IMG/VR virus record: IMGVR_UViG_2847686936_000003
Span: 3,507 to 67,506 of that record
Length of the DNA: 64,000 nucleotides
Source: a virus
Lineage: Duplodnaviria; Caudoviricetes
Reading direction: 5' to 3' (one strand)
Shown: positions 10,511-27,271 of the stretch, piece after piece
Position numbering within the stretch: the first letter of the stretch is position 1
Layout: the number at the start of each line of letters is the position of its first letter
The notes under the pieces: model-generated
What the model saw: only the letters and a program-made list of their open reading frames with translations
The model's database searches: none
What the model was told of the DNA's origin: nothing
Program-made: the position numbers and the translations under genes

Positions 10511-11597
10511 ATGGAGGCGGTTGTCCCCTTCGACGATTCCGGACTCGCTCATGTCATCGAGCGAGCTCGGATGCTGTTCGACGACGGCGACGTCGCATCG
10601 GCACGCATGCTGGCCGCTGGCGCCTATGACCAGGCGAAGGCGGCAGGCAGCTACGCCACCCGCTTCCATGCCGGCGAGCATCTGATCCGGAAGGCACGCC
10701 GGCTCCAGGGTGACGCGCTGCTGATCGAAACGCGCGCGAAGATCACGATTGCCACCGAATGGACTGCCGCCCAGGAAAAAGGGGAGGCCTCGAAGGGCGG
10801 CAGGCCGAAAACCGTTCCAGACGGAAACGGTTTCACGGCAGCCGAAGCCGGGCTCACCCGAAAGGAAATCCACGACGCTCGCAAGCTGGCCGATGCCGAG
10901 CGGCGGGATCCTGGCATTGTCGAGCGGGTGATCGCCGGGCGCGTCGCGGAAGGACTCGAGCCGAGCCGGGCGAATCTGCGCGTGGCGATCGGCACCGACA
11001 CCGCCAGCGCGGCCGAGCGCGGCAACAATCTCTACGAGACGTGCCCGGAAGCGGTGCACACGCTGCTGGCGCTGGAGACCTTCGGCCCTCGCATCAAGGA
11101 ACCGGCATGCGGTCGCGGCGCGATCTCGCGCATGCTGGAAGCGGCCGGCTACGACGTCGCGCTTTCCGACCTCGTCGACTACGGCACCGCCGATCGCCAT
11201 GGCGTCTTGCAGGACGTTCGGGATTTCCTCACCAGCGAGGCAGGCGACGATTGTGACGATATCGCCACCAACCCGCCCTACGGCGGCGTGCTCAACGGCT
11301 TTCGTCGCGCATGCGCTGCGCGTGCACCGGCCGCCGAAGATGGCGCTGTTGCTCAACCTGAATTTCCTCTGCGGCTTCGACGATCCCGACCGCAACTACG
11401 CCATGGACGATTGCAAGCCGGCGCGCATCCATGTCTTCACGCGGCGCCTGCCGATGATGCATCGCGACGGCTGGGACGGCAACGAAGCCTCGAGCCGCAT
11501 GAACCTGGCCTGGTTCGTCTGGGAACAGAACCTCGTCGGCGACTATGCCGGGCCGACGGTCATCAATCGCGTCGACTGGAAAGACTACCAGCCGTGA
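10511..11597 (+). CDS. amino (probably N6-adenine) DNA methyltransferase with N-terminal extension; 1-nt frameshift at ~11301
   Basis: NLYET...EPACGRGAIS (motif I)...DFL...TNPPY (motif IV), continuing in ORF 11199-11597 ALLLNLNFL...AWFVW. Confidence 0.75.
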
Positions 11598-12076
11598 ACG
11601 TCCAACCCTTCTTGATCGGCGAGGGTTGGATCGAGGTGCTCGATGGCAACGACACCGCGCGCGACATCTTCCACCGCCACTATTCCCGCTATCGCTACGC
11701 CGACGGGCGGCAGCCTGCGTTGTTCGTCGGTCCGGGCGAAATGCTCGTCTTGCTCACGGCTGACGCCGGCGCGGTTTCGGCTTGGCGACGCGAGCGGCAC
11801 CGCTTCGATAATCAGCAAGGCGTCAACTGCGCGATCTTCCGTCGAGAGACCGGTGGAGTCGCAAGCGAGCTGCTTGCCGCCGCAATGGCGATCGTTTGGC
11901 AGCGCTGGCCGGGCGAGCGGCTATTCACCTTTGTCGATCCCCGCGAGGTCGAGCCCACCTGGAGCGCAGGGCGACCCACATGGGGCCACTGCTTCTATCA
12001 AGCCGGCTGGCGCTACGCCGGCATCACGAAAAAGCGGCTGCACATTCTGGAGTGCCGGCCGGAGTGGGTGAGTTGA
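11594..12076 (+). CDS. GNAT-fold / Mom-like putative DNA-modifying acyltransferase
   Basis: RHYSR...FVGPGE...GVNCAIFRRE...FTFVDP...GHCFYQAGW; GTG start coupled to the MTase stop. Confidence 0.5.
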   Translation: MNVQPFLIGEGWIEVLDGNDTARDIFHRHYSRYRYADGRQPALFVGPGEMLVLLTADAGAVSAWRRERHRFDNQQGVNCAIFRRETGGVASELLAAAMAIVWQRWPGERLFTFVDPREVEPTWSAGRPTWGHCFYQAGWRYAGITKKRLHILECRPEWVS

Positions 12077-12174
12077 TGCCTGCCCACCGCAGCTCGGCCG
12101 AAGCCGAGATCCGAGATGCCGCTGTGGCTCGCATCCGCCAGCGCCGCCCCGATGCCAGGATCACCCGCCGATGA
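12076..12174 (+). pseudogene. truncated remnant of a phage hypothetical gene
   Basis: MPAHRSSAEAEIRDAAVARIRQRRPDARI stops after 32 aa despite translational coupling. Confidence 0.3.
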
Positions 12175-12207
12175 AGCCGATCCCGAAATTTTCGAAAGGA
12201 CTGCAGC

Positions 12208-12483
12208 ATGAATCACTTCGCCGGCTTCACTGTCCCCGTCGCGGGAGGTCATTACGCCATGCTGCGCTTTGCCGAGGACGGGCAGGCTGAGCCGGTGCTC
12301 GAGGACGGCGGCAAGCCGCGTCTGTTCCCGACCGAGCTGGAGGCGCAGAAGGCGGTCACCGACCATTTGTTGGCCTACTTCAATGGCCGGTTAAGGCGCG
12401 ACGGGGAAACTCTCTCCACGGCCCGCGACGCGGCCGAGCGCATTTTTCGCAAGGGCCGGATGATTCCGGTGGAGCACCGCTGA
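12208..12483 (+). CDS. hypothetical phage protein
   Basis: MNHFAGFTVPVAGGHYAMLRF...; coupled to the next gene. Confidence 0.7.
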   Translation: MNHFAGFTVPVAGGHYAMLRFAEDGQAEPVLEDGGKPRLFPTELEAQKAVTDHLLAYFNGRLRRDGETLSTARDAAERIFRKGRMIPVEHR

Positions 12484-12755
12484 TGACAGGATTTCGCGAA
12501 GGCTGGGCTCTCAAGTCGCCGACTGCCGTCACCACACACTACTTTCGCCGGCGCGGTCTCGGGCTCGCCGTCTCGCTCTGCGGATCCCAGGACGCGCCGG
12601 CCGGATGGCTCATCGAAAATTCGGGCGCCGGGCAATGCGAGCGGTGCGCCATACTGCGGGAGAAGGAACTCGCTAGATTGGACGCTGCGCCGCCAGAGGC
12701 GGCCGAGGACGAGCGCGGCGACCATCGGGCGTGTGATGGGAAGGCCGGCGACTGA
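12483..12755 (+). CDS. hypothetical protein with Cys pairs
   Basis: SLCG...CERC; TGATG coupling. Confidence 0.6.
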   Translation: MTGFREGWALKSPTAVTTHYFRRRGLGLAVSLCGSQDAPAGWLIENSGAGQCERCAILREKELARLDAAPPEAAEDERGDHRACDGKAGD

Positions 12756-12792
12756 CGCGCGCTGGCGGAGCCTCTACACTCGACAAGAAAAT

Positions 12793-12853
12793 GGGGCAGC
12801 GGAGACCAATCCGCTGCCCCTCCCTACCACAACCCGCCGGCCGGAGCCGGCGG
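12793..12853. terminator. two GC-rich hairpins between convergent operons, flanking a CCCTACCAC motif
   Basis: ggggcagcgg/ccgctgcccc (12793-12820) and ccgccggc/gccggcgg (12834-12853); no U-tract. Confidence 0.5.
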
Positions 12854-12862
12854 CGCGGATTC

Positions 12863-14260
12863 CTACACCAGCATCGAGCGCGCATGTGCCTGGCGCAGCT
12901 GCGACTCCATCGAACGGATGGAGCGCGACGCCGCCGCCAGCGTGTCGGCCCACTTGTCGGCCTTGCTGGGGTCAACCGACTTCAAGGCGATGCACTCGCC
13001 GTCCTTGAAGCCGCCGGCGATCGCGGCGATGATGCGCTCGACCGTCTTCTCCATCCGGCTCACGGCGGCGATATCGTCTTTCGAGGGCTCCGGCCTATTC
13101 TCGTCGTCGAACATGCCGCCCTGCTCGATGCGGTCGCGGACCGCCTGCGCCGCTGCCCTGATGCTCGACCAGTCTTTCAGCTTGCCGCTGGAGAACAGCC
13201 TCACGATGTTGATCTGATCGGCCGTGGGGAGGTCGACCAGGTCGTTTGCGTGGCCGAGCGGGAAGGCGCCACTGTCGACCAGCTTCTGGATCGTCTCGTC
13301 GAGATTGAGGAGCGCCGTGCGGGCCTTGATGCGCGTCGGCTGGACGCCGATATCCTTCGCCAGCTGCTCGACTGTCCAGCCGCGGTCGATCATCGCCTGA
13401 AACGCGCGCGCTTCCTCCAGCGGCTTGATGTCGGCACGGGCGAGGTTTTCCACGATCGCCTGCAGCGCCATCTCATTGTCGTCGATCTTCACGACCTCGC
13501 AGAGAATGTCGGCCGCCTCGATCAGCTGGTGAGCGCGCCAGCGGCGCTCGCCACCGACGATCTCATAGACCGCCCGGCGGCTTGGCGAGGCCGAGGGCTC
13601 GACGTTGATGTCGGACGCTTGTAGCGCTTCGTCTGAGCTGTTCGCCGATCCAGTCGTCGTGCCGCCGCCATTGATCTCCGAGGAATTTGATTTCCTCCGG
13701 CGACCACCGGCACCGATGCCCGTTGTTGAGGAAGTCGTTGACTCTAACTCCGACTTGATCTGCCGCGCTTCGTTTGACGTGGAAGTAGGGAAGGCAACAA
13801 TCGATGACGTGCTTGACCTCTCTCGCCGCCGCGACGGTCCAGAACCACTGCTCCCAGGTTTTCCCGTGAAAGACTCGGTGTGATGGAGCGACGGTGCCGA
13901 CGCACCATGCGTCTCGCAACCATCGGCAGATCGTTGCGCCGTCGTTTGTGACTGACTGGCTGACGACGACACGGAACCGGTTGCCTTTGACGCTGATCGT
14001 TCCCTCTCCGTCGATGAAGCCGGCCGTGTAGGCGACGACTTCGATTGGAGGTCGAGCAAAGTGTTCCATTCTGCGATGTTCTCCGATGTGATTTCTTCGA
14101 TTCGACCGTCGGTCAGGAAAACCGGGCGAACCGTGATGGCCTGGATAAGGCCGCGCTCGCGGATCGATTCAGCCAGCTCGCGAATCTTCACCGGGTCGAA
14201 ATGCTTGCGCGGCTGGTCGGGATTCGGGATAACAAGGTTGAGGGGGATGCGCTTCTTCAT
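12863..14260 (-). CDS. ParB/RepB/Spo0J-family protein with ~185-aa Ser/Thr/Gly-rich in-frame insertion
   Basis: PNPDQPRKHF...ELAESIRERGLIQAITVRP [insert] YEIVGGERRWRA...ENLARADIKPLEEA...HTH. Confidence 0.9.
   Translation of the reverse strand: MKKRIPLNLVIPNPDQPRKHFDPVKIRELAESIRERGLIQAITVRPVFLTDGRIEEITSENIAEWNTLLDLQSKSSPTRPASSTERERSASKATGSVSSSASQSQTTAQRSADGCETHGASAPSLHHTESFTGKPGSSGSGPSRRRERSSTSSIVAFPTSTSNEARQIKSELESTTSSTTGIGAGGRRRKSNSSEINGGGTTTGSANSSDEALQASDINVEPSASPSRRAVYEIVGGERRWRAHQLIEAADILCEVVKIDDNEMALQAIVENLARADIKPLEEARAFQAMIDRGWTVEQLAKDIGVQPTRIKARTALLNLDETIQKLVDSGAFPLGHANDLVDLPTADQINIVRLFSSGKLKDWSSIRAAAQAVRDRIEQGGMFDDENRPEPSKDDIAAVSRMEKTVERIIAAIAGGFKDGECIALKSVDPSKADKWADTLAAASRSIRSMESQLRQAHARSMLV
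13563..14069 (-). CDS. single-motif LAGLIDADG homing endonuclease nested out of frame in the ParB gene
   Basis: AYTAGFIDGEGTISV motif, typical LAGLIDADG fold (FRVVVSQS...WFWTV...CLPYFHVKR), C-terminal WSPEEIKFL...RS..SV...RRALGL HTH; GGAG upstream of the ATG. Confidence 0.88.
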   Translation of the reverse strand: MEHFARPPIEVVAYTAGFIDGEGTISVKGNRFRVVVSQSVTNDGATICRWLRDAWCVGTVAPSHRVFHGKTWEQWFWTVAAAREVKHVIDCCLPYFHVKRSAADQVGVRVNDFLNNGHRCRWSPEEIKFLGDQWRRHDDWIGEQLRRSATSVRHQRRALGLAKPPGGL

Positions 14261-14267
14261 GGTCGGG

Positions 14268-14280
14268 CTCCGTGGTAGGG
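14268..14280 (-). repeat. start-associated leader CCCTACCACGGAG, copy before the ParB gene
   Basis: Identical copies at 16536, 17184, 18963, 20733, 24769; variants at 18071, 18221, 20969, 25151. Confidence 0.9.
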
Positions 14281-14300
14281 AATTTCCTAGCAACATCAAT

Positions 14301-14329
14301 AACTTAGCATGTAACCGATATGGTTACAA
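14301..14329 (-). promoter_or_regulatory. operator-promoter: TTGTAA-N17-TAAGTT containing perfect GTAACC-N5-GGTTAC (14311-14327)
   Basis: Read directly from sequence; same design at 17403, 18992, 21012, 51622. Confidence 0.8.
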
Positions 14330-14476
14330 GTGGTTACCAAGAAAAGTTCCGATCAGCGGGCCCCCCGCTTGCGCGCGCGACCGCCAGAAACGAAGCCGTG
14401 CAAAATGGTAATCCTGCCTCGGCGTCTGATGATCAGGGAAGCGGATGGCTGGTATCAAAGTTTCCGACAACAGCGG

Positions 14477-15369
14477 TCAAGGGAGCGGCAGCGGTGCATC
14501 ACTCAAGGTCCGCAGGTAGGCAATGAGGTCCGCCCGCTTGTTTCCCTCCTTCAAACCCGGGAAAGACATGTCCGTACCGGGCAACGTGAGCGAGGGATTC
14601 GAGATGAAGAGATTGAGCTCCTCAAAGGTCCATTTGCCGCCAGCGTCTTTCAGAGCCGCCGAATACTGGACATCGCTTTGGGATCCTTTCTCGCGCCCGA
14701 CGATGCCCCACAGATTGACCTTTTTGGGCACCTTGACGCCCGGCGAAAGATGACAGGCGACGCAGGTGCTGTCGTATATCTCTTTGCCCGATTGAGCGTT
14801 TGCTGATGCAAGGAGTGCGGAAATCGGCGCGATGGCCGGTCTTGCGGCGCCATGATCGCGCAAGTACGCCGCGACGTCCTCGTGGCCTCCGACCTTGGCC
14901 AGATGTATCGGCGGACTTCCATTCGACGTCAGGGCGTTGACGTCTGCTCCGGCGCCGACAAGGTGGATAACGCACTCAAGGCAGCCATTTTCGGCAGCAA
15001 CATGCAGCGGCGTCTGCGCTTTCGCCACCCGATTTGGATCGGCCCCGTTGTCTAGCAGCAGCTTGACGATGGCAGCATGCCCACCCTTATTGGCGGCGTA
15101 GAGTGGCGTTCTTTGCCAACTGACAGGCAGGTTGACGTCTGCCCCACGCTTGATCAGCAGCGCTGCCAACTCGACATTTCCACGTTCGGAGGCGATGTAG
15201 AGCGCCGTAACACCGTCGATTTCGTTGACATCTGCGCCTTTGTCCAAGGCGGAGGTCACGGCCGCGACGTCGCCATCCTTGACCAAATCCCCAAGCTGCT
15301 CGCTTGCGCGGGCAGGGCCAGGAGAGCGCACGAAACCCACAGCGTCCACATGCGTCCCGGCTTGATCAT
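14477..15369 (-). CDS. exported ankyrin-repeat / cytochrome c fusion protein; 1-nt frameshift at ~15301 separates the signal peptide
   Basis: MIKPGRMWTLWVSCALLALPAQA signal peptide in the adjacent frame; four ANK repeats (TALYIAS, TPLYAA, TPLHVAA, PPIHLA); CVACH haem motif, NLWGIVGR, PGTDMSFPG axial Met. Confidence 0.85.
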
Positions 15370-15503
15370 TGCACCCCTCTAGGCTGCTCGTATCTCACCC
15401 TGCAATTTAACCGAACGCAGAGAGTTAGTACACGCTAATATATGAAGAGGGGACGACGATCGGCTGGACGGTGGTGGTGTGTCGATGTTCATGCCAGCCA
15501 CCC

Positions 15504-26553: not shown

Positions 26554-27271
26554 CTGGAAGGTCCTCGATATCGAGGCGCGCCAGGTTGATCCGAACACGC
26601 TTCGCCGCCGCGAGAAGAACGCGCACTACATGGCACCGGCCATGTTCAAGCGCCTTGTCGAGAACGTCAAAATCGATGGCCGCCTCACCACCACGGTCCT
26701 GGCATGCGAGAACAAGGACGGCTCTCTCGAGATCTTGTCCGGACATCATCGCACGGCCGCGGCGATCGAGGCCGGCTTGCCGATGGTCGACGCGCTCGTG
26801 ATCACCACCCCGTTGAGCGAAAAGCGCAAGGTGGCGATCCAGCTCAGCCACAACTCGATCAACGGCGAGGATGACCAGTCGCTGCTGGCCCAGCTCTACG
26901 CCTCGCTCGACATCGATGCGAAGAAGTTCTCCGGGCTCGATGACAGCGTGCTCGCCGGCGACAAGGGACCAGGTGCTACCGCGCTCGGCGGGGCGAACAT
27001 CAAATACGACGAGCTGCTTTTCTCCTTCCTGCCGGAAGACCGCGTGCGTTTCGAGGTCGAGCTGGAGGCACTCGCCAAAAGGGCCAAGCGCTTCCGCATC
27101 CATGCCGCGCCGCAGTCGAAGTTCGACGAGTTCTTCGACACCATCGTGCGCACCAAGAGCCAGCTCAACATCGTCAATTCGGGCATCGCCCTCTCGGTCA
27201 TGGCGCGCCTTGCCGGCGAGCGGCTGGATCAACTCGAAGCGGAAGCGGAGGACAAATCCGATGCGGCATGA
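26531..27271 (+). CDS. ParB/Srx N-terminal domain protein
   Basis: KNAHYM...LVENVKIDG...EILSGHHRTAAAIEAG...IQLSHNSINGEDD. Confidence 0.85.
   Translation: MASTSSVDWKVLDIEARQVDPNTLRRREKNAHYMAPAMFKRLVENVKIDGRLTTTVLACENKDGSLEILSGHHRTAAAIEAGLPMVDALVITTPLSEKRKVAIQLSHNSINGEDDQSLLAQLYASLDIDAKKFSGLDDSVLAGDKGPGATALGGANIKYDELLFSFLPEDRVRFEVELEALAKRAKRFRIHAAPQSKFDEFFDTIVRTKSQLNIVNSGIALSVMARLAGERLDQLEAEAEDKSDAA

What the first reader, a model, noticed from the sequence alone, without database searches (positions are those of the whole stretch)
12863..14260. Homing endonuclease gene nested out of frame inside a ParB gene whose own frame stays open: candidate splicing-free way to tolerate a selfish element
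Seen: ParB motifs IQAITVRP and YEIVGGERRWRA, normally ~10 aa apart, are separated by ~185 aa of Ser/Thr/Gly-rich sequence. That sequence is the shifted reading of a complete same-strand LAGLIDADG ORF (13563-14069, AYTAGFIDGEG, upstream GGAG, own ATG). Its TGA lies inside the ParB codons TAT GAG, and the ParB frame has no stop over 507 nt. The endonuclease's Val codons are nearly all GTC and never GTG, and it has no CTG. About nine Val/Leu codons are followed by an A-starting codon, where GTG/CTG would create TGA in the ParB frame. Established: LAGLIDADG genes usually spread within group I introns or inteins, or sit free between genes. No intein C/S...HN ends are present, and an intron would not need an open host frame. 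Inference: selection keeps the host frame open, so ParB is made with a disordered loop and the HEG persists without splicing. Alternatives are a cryptic intron, ribosomal bypassing, or a -1 slip at G-GTT-TTC (~14117-14123) giving a ParB-N/HEG fusion.
Basis: partly seen in the sequence, partly recalled or inferred. Interest (0 to 1): 0.88.

Follow-up and report, generated by a model that had tools for sequence, protein, structure and literature searches.

The report
Hidden homing endonuclease inside ParB gene
A selfish DNA-cutting gene (a LAGLIDADG homing endonuclease) sits one base out of step inside a prophage ParB gene, and in every relative found the ParB reading frame is kept free of stops, so ParB seems to be read straight through it without splicing; this trick was first published in 2025 for another nuclease and another host gene.

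Summary
A Mesorhizobium provirus ParB gene (12863-14260, minus strand) carries a 558-nt insert (13563-14120) at the hairpin between VRP and the GERR box. An intact 168-aa endonuclease gene (13563-14069) lies inside it, two bases out of step. Its model has the I-CreI fold (pLDDT 95.8).

Empty alleles about 95% identical exist in other Mesorhizobium. There is no Rfam intron, no Hint or intein signal, and only about 50 nt of insert lie outside the endonuclease ORF.

For this window alone, the open ParB frame is not significant when the endonuclease's own codons are shuffled (P=0.37). It is significant against ParB codon usage (P=0.007).

The decisive evidence is comparative. Fourteen other distinct copies (32-51% identity between deep lineages; one partial, one decayed) all sit at the same ParB_N position. 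All but the decayed one keep the host frame open. None of 62 more distant LAGLIDADG ORFs does.

Relatives also conserve host-frame residues (PCGH, and CPxC forced by NTG Leu codons). This window's copy has lost them.

The scan has met this kind before on other DNA, mostly with HNH nucleases. It is a new variant of the published "ShiLan" kind. Translation without splicing is inferred, not shown.

The parts
12863..14260 (-). Whole ParB open reading frame (465 aa from ATG), read straight through the insert
   Evidence: ORF; ParB_N E=1.3e-20 in two stretches, HTH_ParB E=2.6e-15; NCBI names 460-487-aa versions ParB/RepB/Spo0J
14121..14260 (-). ParB 5' exon-like part, up to ...IQAITVRPV (ParB_N profile positions 4-49)
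   Evidence: homologous to empty alleles (query 1-140 aligns at 94%)
13563..14120 (-). Inserted element: 558 nt (186 host-frame codons) with no counterpart in empty alleles, where 15 nt (DGKFM) stand instead
   Evidence: query 141-698 unaligned in G091; empty allele VRPV-DGKFM-IVGGERR; P0004, 285 aa
14070..14120 (-). Leader of the element in the host frame (FLTDGRIEEITSENIAE). It is a degenerate counterpart of the (Y)PCGH leader of relatives and holds the Shine-Dalgarno-like GGAG at 14081-14084
   Evidence: empty alleles of another host type lack PCGH
13563..14069 (-). LAGLIDADG homing endonuclease gene, 168 aa, single motif (AYTAGFIDGEG) plus a C-terminal helix-turn-helix-like domain, in frame host +2
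   Evidence: family alignment; D20, E22 and other conserved residues present; I-CreI/I-CvuI fold; phrog_5046, 6e-8
13782..13793 (-). Endonuclease codons L93-P94-Y95-F96 (CTT CCC TAC TTC). In relatives these read C-P-x-C in the host frame; here they read F-P-T-S, so the motif is lost
12863..13562 (-). ParB 3' exon-like part: (E)IVGGERRWRA..., second half of ParB_N, the HTH domain and the C-terminal domain
   Evidence: 95% identical to the empty allele; 31 synonymous against 6 non-synonymous differences to the WSM3860 copy
12793..12820 (-). Terminator-like hairpin with a T run, downstream of the ParB stop
   Evidence: consensus scan only

Best explanation
A homing-endonuclease element of the 'hidden, out-of-frame' kind has inserted into a prophage ParB gene.

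Layout. The element (13563-14120) has a short leader with a ribosome-binding site, then a single-motif LAGLIDADG endonuclease gene. The endonuclease stop codon overlaps the 3' junction. The element sits in the beta-hairpin turn between the VRP strand and the GERR (CTP-binding) strand of the ParB N-terminal domain.

How it spreads (inferred). The endonuclease is translated from its own ATG. It presumably cuts empty ParB alleles at this conserved site, so that repair copies the element in.

How it is tolerated (inferred). The element has no intron and no intein. Its length is a multiple of three, and purifying selection removes every codon combination (NTG-A, NTA-A/G) that would put a stop into the ParB frame. 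ParB is therefore translated straight through and carries a loop of about 186 residues, rich in Ser and Thr, at a surface hairpin.

Relatives. In relatives that loop holds selected Cys/His motifs: PCGH near its start, and CPxC about 105 residues later. These probably form a metal-stapled knot. The Mesorhizobium copy has lost all four of these residues.

Shown: the layout, the fold, the presence/absence polymorphism, and the selection on both frames. Inferred: cleavage and homing, no splicing, a working ParB, and metal binding.
For: 1. Fold and family. The AF2 model has pLDDT 95.8. Its best PDB matches are I-CvuI, I-CreI and I-MsoI at probability 1.0. An exhaustive search found 404 relatives at E<1e-3, and the motif residues are conserved.

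2. Mobility. Empty alleles 94-96% identical exist in other Mesorhizobium. Only 1 of 202 species genomes of the genus holds the endonuclease. Substitution density between two occupied alleles is 2.2% in the element and 5.9% in the exons.

3. Recurrence. The viral and metagenome scans gave 21 loci, about 14 distinct. Endonuclease identity is 32-51% between deep lineages. All are nested at ParB_N profile position 48/50, in GERR-type and DGxHR-type ParB-like genes, always with the same frame offset. The host frame is open in all except the decayed L050. The third frame is closed in all but the WSM3860 copy.

4. Control. None of 62 more distant LAGLIDADG ORFs from the same scans has an open +1 frame; they carry 1-17 stops, also at GC 0.55-0.68.

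5. Null models. Against host-exon codon usage, P(no stop) ranges from under 0.0003 to 0.18 per locus, and is 0.0067 here. Even with own-codon shuffling, the product over 8 deep lineages is about 1e-6. CTG and GTG are depleted in all but two of the copies, L053 and L054.

6. Selection. Within one group whose members all carry the insert, host exon dN/dS is 0.18-0.26 at dS 0.47-0.81. Endonuclease dN/dS is 0.29-0.46 at a similar dS. The host-frame reading of the insert gives 0.7-1.4.

7. The host frame is really translated. PCGH varies only at host-frame wobble positions. The two Leu codons under CPxC are NTG in 21 of 21 cases (plus one ATG), against 22 of 174 elsewhere. The Pro codon is CCC in 11 of 11, against 15 of 61 elsewhere.

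8. No splicing apparatus. Rfam gives no hit at E<=10. Pfam gives no Hint or intein hit at E<=1 in nine host-frame proteins. The AF2 model of an occupied ParB (L044) folds both ParB halves at pLDDT 84-98 and matches ParB/Noc structures, while the insert scores about 40.
Against: There are no RNA or protein data.

For this window alone, the open frame is not significant under the conservative null (P=0.37).

This copy has lost the Cys/His motifs that relatives conserve. Its ParB could therefore be on the way to decay.

The low exon dN/dS between the two Mesorhizobium copies may partly predate the insertion, because the element looks younger than the exons.

One relative (L050) has frameshifts in both genes.

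I could not measure the Cys-Cys distances in the model, because no coordinates were available.
Confidence: 0.75

Rival explanations
1. The insert is removed from the RNA by an unrecognised, very small or trans-acting splicing system (a cryptic intron). The open host frame would then be incidental.
For: Homing endonucleases of the I-CreI type usually live in group I introns (PDB titles). Absence from Rfam does not prove absence of a ribozyme. No transcript data were available.
Against: Only 51 nt at the 5' end and 0 nt at the 3' end of the insert lie outside the endonuclease ORF. An intron needs neither an open host frame nor a length divisible by three. Yet the frame is open in every intact relative and in none of 62 controls. 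Host-frame residues inside the insert are under selection.
Confidence: 0.07
2. In this Mesorhizobium copy the ParB gene is simply disrupted and dispensable. The open frame here is inherited or accidental (a filter on arrival plus GC-rich DNA) and no working ParB is made.
For: P=0.37 with own-codon shuffling. Long spurious ORFs are common in this GC-rich window. This copy has lost the PCGH and CPxC residues. The host-frame peptide evolves freely: 10 of 11 substitutions in the overlap change it.
Against: The frame is open in both diverged Mesorhizobium copies. 460-487-aa ParB forms occur in many strains. ParB exons show 43 synonymous against 8 non-synonymous differences. Against ParB codon usage about 4 stops are expected, P=0.0067. 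In the related group the occupied host genes stay under purifying selection at dS of about 0.5-0.8.
Confidence: 0.1
3. The read-through peptide is removed or cut at the protein level by a non-canonical, Cys-dependent self-processing device. The conserved PCGH/CPxC residues would be catalytic rather than structural.
For: A conserved Cys lies a few residues after the 5' junction, and further Cys/His are selected in the host frame. Protein splicing and related autoprocessing start at a junction Cys (established knowledge).
Against: No Hint or intein signal. No conserved His-Asn, and no Cys/Ser/Thr nucleophile, at the 3' junction. The insert is modelled as disordered except at the two motifs. Its host-frame dN/dS is about 1. 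The Mesorhizobium copy lacks all these residues yet keeps the frame open.
Confidence: 0.05
4. Recoding: ribosomes either hop over the insert, or slip into the endonuclease frame to make a ParB-N/endonuclease fusion.
For: Mobile-element-encoded bypassing exists in T4 gene 60 relatives (bioRxiv 10.1101/2022.08.31.505936, listed). In this window the endonuclease frame happens to be open upstream of its ATG.
Against: A 558-nt hop is far beyond known bypasses and would not need an open frame. In relatives, stops lie in the endonuclease frame 0-9 codons before its start (L005, L039, L047, L048). Purine-rich Shine-Dalgarno-like motifs precede most of the starts. G-GTT-TTC is not an X-XXY-YYZ site.
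Confidence: 0.02

Closest known systems
ShiLan domain and the Pacc40 insertion: hidden out-of-frame HNH endonuclease elements in mycobacteriophage DNA methylase genes (Arsenault, Gosselin & Gogarten, Genes 2025, PMC11855218)
   Same: The insertion sits at a conserved site of a phage gene. The host frame has no stop. The nuclease is in the third frame, starts a few codons into the insert and ends within its last bases. No intein or intron signature is found. The 5' end of the insert resembles the host sequence that follows the insertion site. The host protein is predicted to carry the insert as a loop.
   Different: The nuclease here is a LAGLIDADG (I-CreI fold), not an HNH. The host is the ParB/Srx fold, not a methylase. 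The lineage is old and spans very different ParB-like hosts at one structural position. The leader is about 17-25 codons long and has a visible Shine-Dalgarno motif. Relatives carry host-frame Cys/His motifs enforced through the nuclease's wobble bases.
Inteins whose homing endonuclease is encoded out of frame or antisense (cyanobacterial dnaX intein, bioRxiv 10.64898/2026.09.14.751524; actinophage inteins, bioRxiv 10.1101/2025.01.02.630785)
   Same: A homing endonuclease gene overlaps an uninterrupted host frame, and both frames are kept open.
   Different: In those cases the host frame encodes a Hint splicing domain that removes the insert from the protein. Here no Hint blocks, junction residues or fold are found.
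Homodimeric single-motif LAGLIDADG endonucleases I-CreI, I-CvuI and I-MsoI of group I introns (PDB 1bp7, 5a72, 1m5x)
   Same: The same alpha-beta-beta-alpha-beta-beta-alpha fold, one LAGLIDADG motif with an acidic residue, and about 160 aa.
   Different: Sequence identity is only 16-20%. There is an extra C-terminal helix-turn-helix-like domain, repeated in longer relatives. There is no intron around it.
Free-standing homing endonuclease genes that split a host gene into two working pieces (mobE in the nrdA gene of Aeromonas phage Aeh1; recalled from memory, not checked here)
   Same: A homing endonuclease with its own start sits inside a coding gene without an intron or intein.
   Different: There the host gene is broken into two ORFs whose products reassemble. 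Here the host frame runs through.

Membership tests
LAGLIDADG homing endonuclease (single-motif, I-CreI-like) | LAGLIDADG motif with a conserved acidic residue at its end | tested here: met
   AYTAGFIDGEG. D20 is invariant and G21/G23 nearly invariant in the 29-sequence family alignment; E22 is invariant in the 12 closest
LAGLIDADG homing endonuclease (single-motif, I-CreI-like) | alpha-beta-beta-alpha-beta-beta-alpha core fold | tested here: met
   AF2 pLDDT 95.8; Foldseek probability 1.0 to I-CvuI, I-CreI and I-MsoI
LAGLIDADG homing endonuclease (single-motif, I-CreI-like) | Match to a curated LAGLIDADG profile | tested here: not met
   Pfam LAGLIDADG_3 E=0.17, 12.6 bits against a cut-off of 22.5. 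The only profile hit is phrog_5046, which is labelled HNH. This subfamily is not covered by Pfam
LAGLIDADG homing endonuclease (single-motif, I-CreI-like) | Site-specific cleavage of the empty allele, and homing | not testable with these tools
   Indirect only: presence/absence polymorphism at one conserved site, and an element younger than its exons
ShiLan-type hidden out-of-frame endonuclease insertion | Insert at a conserved site of a host gene, length a multiple of three, no stop in the host frame | tested here: met
   558 nt replace 15 nt. The frame is open here and in all intact relatives
ShiLan-type hidden out-of-frame endonuclease insertion | Complete nuclease ORF in another frame of the same strand, starting shortly after the 5' junction and stopping at the 3' junction | tested here: met
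   The start is 51 nt into the insert. The TGA stop is its last three bases. The frame is host +2
ShiLan-type hidden out-of-frame endonuclease insertion | No intein and no intron signature | tested here: met
ShiLan-type hidden out-of-frame endonuclease insertion | Nuclease of the HNH family (as in the described cases) | tested here: not met
   The fold is LAGLIDADG. This is therefore the same design with a different nuclease family
ShiLan-type hidden out-of-frame endonuclease insertion | Host protein made with the insert retained (no splicing) | not testable with these tools
   Untested also for ShiLan itself (PMC11855218, section 4.4)
Intein | Hint domain blocks; Cys/Ser/Ala at the N-terminal end; His-Asn followed by Cys/Ser/Thr at the C-terminal end | tested here: not met
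   No Hint or intein Pfam hit at E<=1. The junctions read VRPV|FLTDGR and RRAVYE|IVGG, and no His-Asn is found in any of 13 copies with a 3' junction. The insert has pLDDT of about 40
Group I or group II intron | Conserved ribozyme core around or beside the ORF | tested here: not met
   No Rfam match at E<=10 over 12000-15000. Only 51 nt of the insert lie outside the ORF
ParB/Srx superfamily (the host gene) | ParB_N domain with the GxxRxxA box, plus the ParB HTH domain | tested here: met
   ParB_N E=1.3e-20 and HTH_ParB E=2.6e-15; GGERRWRA is present. The model of an occupied relative matches ParB/Noc CTPase structures

The most novel reading that the evidence does not exclude
This is an old lineage of LAGLIDADG elements specialised on one hairpin of the ParB/Srx fold. 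It does more than avoid stops. Through the wobble bases of the endonuclease gene it encodes, in the host frame, a functional Cys/His module: PCGH, then about 105 residues, then CPxC(G). This module would staple or process the read-through loop, which makes it true dual coding that lets a selfish gene live inside a protein without RNA or protein splicing. The Mesorhizobium copy would be a derived form that has lost the module yet is still tolerated.
Probability: 0.45. Interest if true: 0.75.

Novelty: new variant of a known kind. Interest (0 to 1): 0.6.

Why it matters
Homing endonucleases inside genes were thought to need an intron or an intein, or to split their host gene. A third way, being read through as a protein loop, was proposed in 2025 from a few closely related HNH cases and has not been tested at the bench.

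This locus and its relatives give the idea a second nuclease family and a second host fold. They also give it deep comparative support: both frames are under selection over divergences where synonymous sites are close to saturation. Residue-level selection in the host frame gives an unexpected hint that the loop is engineered and not merely tolerated.

The finding also points to a permissive insertion site in the ParB CTPase domain. It corrects database annotation, where the nuclease is called hypothetical and ParB is sometimes started inside the insert.

Tried and rejected
Intron: the Rfam scan of 12000-15000 on both strands at E<=10 gave nothing.

Intein: Pfam scans of the window ParB and of nine host-frame proteins at E<=1 gave no Hint or intein family. 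The junction residues do not fit.

Frameshift fusion and bypassing were rejected because relatives have stops before the endonuclease start, and on the logic of the conserved open frame.

A word-index protein search with the endonuclease found only the protein itself. The exhaustive search was needed.

P0003 (286 aa) looked like an empty allele. It is an annotation that starts inside the insert.

It was repeated with 12 sequences.

Full report
**What is there.** The window comes from a 67.5-kb IMG/VR provirus record. Its closest relatives are Mesorhizobium genomes. On the minus strand, one open frame runs from 14299 to 12863. From the ATG at 14260 it encodes 465 residues. Pfam finds the ParB N-terminal domain in two pieces plus the ParB HTH domain. 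The ParB_N profile is cut between positions 49 and 50.

Between the two pieces, about 184 residues of Ser/Thr/Gly/Arg-rich sequence separate IQAITVRPV from YEIVGGERRWRA. A 168-codon ORF (14069-13563) lies inside this stretch on the same strand, offset by two bases. GGAG stands 11 nt before its ATG. Its TGA sits inside the ParB codons TAT GAG.

**The nested gene is a real homing endonuclease gene.** Pfam does not recognise it (LAGLIDADG_3, E=0.17), and a word-index search found only the protein itself. An exhaustive HMMER search found 404 relatives at E<1e-3, and 33 at E<1e-10 that cover its full length. Their alignment conserves AYTAGxxDGEGSI, SQSxxNDGE, W..W and CLPYLRVKR. It also conserves a C-terminal W..E(D/E)..L helix-turn-helix-like unit, which longer relatives repeat.

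The AlphaFold2 model built from that alignment has pLDDT 95.8. Its best PDB matches are the homodimeric single-motif enzymes I-CvuI, I-CreI and I-MsoI, at probability 1.0.

**It is an insertion.** Closely related Mesorhizobium ParB proteins of 283-285 aa lack the segment (P0004, 96% identical). At the DNA level, one genome (G091) matches the window at 94-95% on both sides. It carries 15 nt (DGKFM) where the window has 558 nt, at 14120-13563.

Only 1 of 202 species-representative genomes of the genus holds the endonuclease. Even so, occupied ParB genes of 460-487 aa occur in several strains: WSM3860, WSM3873, WSM3879, AA23 and MAGs. Between the window and the WSM3860 copy, the element differs at 2.2% of positions and the ParB exons at 5.9%. 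This fits an element that moved more recently than the alleles diverged.

**No splicing apparatus is visible.** Rfam finds nothing in 12000-15000 at E<=10. Only 51 nt of the insert lie outside the endonuclease ORF, which leaves no room for a ribozyme core. Pfam finds no Hint or intein family in the window ParB, nor in nine host-frame proteins of relatives at E<=1. The junctions carry no Cys/Ser...His-Asn-Cys/Ser/Thr pattern.

**Is the open host frame more than chance?** For this locus alone, it depends on the null model.
- Shuffling the endonuclease's own synonymous codons leaves the ParB frame open in 37% of trials.
- Those codons may themselves be shaped by the constraint. Drawing codons from the usage of the ParB exons gives a mean of 4.06 stops and P=0.0067.

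The comparative data settle the question. Scans of viral and metagenome contigs with the family alignment returned 21 loci with full-length relatives, about 14 distinct. Endonuclease identity is 32-51% between the deep lineages.
- In every one, the endonuclease is nested in a ParB-like gene at the same structural position.
- The start offset is the same, two modulo three.
- The host frame is open across the whole endonuclease, while the third frame is broken in all but the WSM3860 copy.
- The hosts are diverse. They include canonical GERR-type ParB with an HTH domain, and DGxHR-type ParB-like proteins that follow a PAPS-reductase-like gene. Pfam again splits ParB_N at positions 48/50.

Against host codon usage, P(no stop) per locus runs from under 0.0003 to 0.18. 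Even the conservative own-codon null gives a product of about 1e-6 over eight deep lineages.

As a control, the same scans also returned 62 more distant LAGLIDADG ORFs. None has an open +1 frame. They carry 1 to 17 stops, including those with GC of 0.55-0.68.

One relative, L050, has frameshifts in both the endonuclease and ParB. It looks like a decayed copy or a poor assembly.

**Both genes stay under selection while nested.** In the group L037/L039/L040/L046, every member carries the insert. The ParB exon after the insert has dN/dS of 0.18-0.26 at dS 0.47-0.81. The endonuclease has dN/dS of 0.29-0.46 at a similar dS (0.49-0.94). The host-frame reading of the insert gives 0.7-1.4.

The similar dS values suggest that host and element diverged together. 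The occupied ParB genes have therefore been kept working over long periods.

In the Mesorhizobium pair, the exons show 43 synonymous against 8 non-synonymous differences. Of 11 changes in the overlap, 8 are silent for the endonuclease and change the host-frame peptide.

**The host frame carries its own selected residues in relatives.**
- *PCGH.* Ten to 15 codons before the endonuclease start, all lineages but Mesorhizobium read (Y)PCGH in the host frame; L005 has CGV, L054 has CGD and L044 has Lys for the Pro. Variation is confined to host-frame wobble positions: TGT/TGC, GGA/GGT/GGC/GGG, CAT/CAC. Empty alleles of one such host type have only 2-5 residues between VRP and R(F/Y)QLVYGERR. PCGH therefore belongs to the element.
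- *CPxC.* Further in, the endonuclease motif L-P-Y-L is read as C-P-(T/I)-C in the host frame. That reading needs NTG codons for both Leu and CCC for Pro. The two Leu columns use NTG in 21 of 21 cases, and one Met ATG keeps the TG. Elsewhere in the same genes NTG makes up 22 of 174 Leu codons. The Pro codon is CCC in 11 of 11 cases, against 15 of 61 elsewhere.

This is residue-level selection in the host frame, so that frame is translated at least that far.

An AlphaFold2 model of an occupied relative (L044) folds both ParB halves at pLDDT 84-98 and matches ParB/Noc CTPase structures. The insert scores about 40, except around CGH (about 90) and CPTC (about 81). I read the two motifs as zinc-knuckle-like ligands that tie down part of the loop. 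This is an inference: no coordinates were available to measure distances.

The window's copy reads TDGR and AFPTS at these places. It has lost all four candidate ligands together.

**Mechanism proposed.**
- The endonuclease is made from its own start. Purine-rich Shine-Dalgarno-like motifs precede most of the starts across the family.
- It cuts empty ParB alleles at the DNA that encodes the conserved hairpin and GERR box, and repair copies the element in.
- The element persists because ParB is translated through it. The roughly 186 extra residues loop out of a surface hairpin.
- Selection removes NTG-A and NTA-A/G codon pairs from the endonuclease gene. This also explains the Ser-rich loop, because NTC codons read as TCN in the host frame.

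The layout and the selection are shown. Cleavage, the absence of splicing and ParB activity are inferred.

**Comparison with what is known.** The design matches the ShiLan domain and related insertions: an HNH endonuclease hidden in the third frame of a stop-free insert in mycobacteriophage methylase genes, with no intein or intron detected (Arsenault, Gosselin & Gogarten 2025, PMC11855218). Even the likeness between the start of the insert and the host sequence after the insertion site recurs here. Compare DGR-IEEI at the start of the element with DGK-FMIV in the empty allele.

That paper mentions neither ParB nor an out-of-frame LAGLIDADG. Inteins with out-of-frame or antisense endonuclease genes are a related published layout, but there the host frame encodes a splicing domain.

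Earlier notes of this scan list many ShiLan-like cases on other DNA. Most are HNH. Two are antisense LAGLIDADG genes in methylases. None is in ParB. I therefore class this as a new variant of a known kind. It has a different nuclease family and a different host fold. It is an old lineage spread over very different ParB-like hosts, and relatives show host-frame motifs that go beyond stop avoidance.

**Limits.** No transcript or protein evidence could be obtained. The DNA contexts of the protein-only relatives could not be read. This particular copy may be a degenerate member.

Noticed in passing
window 10511-12076 (+), with 11199-11597 (+): The neighbouring DNA methyltransferase (phrog_799, E=2e-68) matches only residues 10-259 of a 521-aa ORF. 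Its C-terminal part (...AWFVWEQ) continues in another frame (ORF 11199-11597). The end of the long ORF matches a different family (phrog_24928). This could be a frameshifted methylase, overlapping genes or another embedded element.
   Followed up: no
L004:2245-2772 (+): The viral contig that carries a nested ParB-like/LAGLIDADG pair also has a second, free-standing LAGLIDADG ORF (LAGLWDGEGSIG). It lies just upstream, between a PAPS-reductase-like gene and the ParB-like gene.
   Followed up: no
L050:2261-3466: This is a decayed or mis-assembled copy. The ParB N-terminal part runs in frame into the endonuclease (WEHF instead of MEHF). The endonuclease is frameshifted near its C-terminus, and the GERR exon lies in a third frame. 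PCGH-like (WQCGH) and CPIC are still readable.
   Followed up: partly
L043:1013-1496: The ParB exon downstream of the insert turns into Arg/Pro-rich nonsense after about 40 residues. This suggests a frameshift in this host copy or a sequencing error.
   Followed up: no
window 13563-14260 (database annotation): Public annotation is inconsistent. Some genomes call a 460-487-aa ParB. Others start ParB inside the insert (P0003 at 286 aa; P0251 and P0257 at 270 aa). The endonuclease is called 'hypothetical protein' (WP_067328634.1).
   Followed up: partly
window about 26621-26833 (+) (G000:C1:30127-30339): A second, weak ParB_N-like match in the same provirus (E=5.8e-4, below the family cut-off), inside a 287-aa open frame.
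   Followed up: no
window 14477-15349 (-): Directly upstream of ParB lies a 290-aa ORF with ankyrin-like repeats and a C-terminal CVACH (haem c-type) motif. GC drops to 0.55-0.60 over 13600-15500.
   Followed up: no
window 13563-13720 (-) and alignment A2: The C-terminal third of the endonuclease (W..EE..L...W...I...L.RS...VR.RR..LG) is a helix-turn-helix-like unit. It is present once here and two or three times in longer relatives (P0083, P0100, P0108; L037 group). It also matches repeats in unrelated multi-HTH proteins.
   Followed up: partly
L002:3810-5198 against window 12863-14260: The WSM3860 ParB copy has an in-frame 9-nt deletion in the C-terminal exon (FSSGKLKDW becomes FSLKDW).
   Followed up: no
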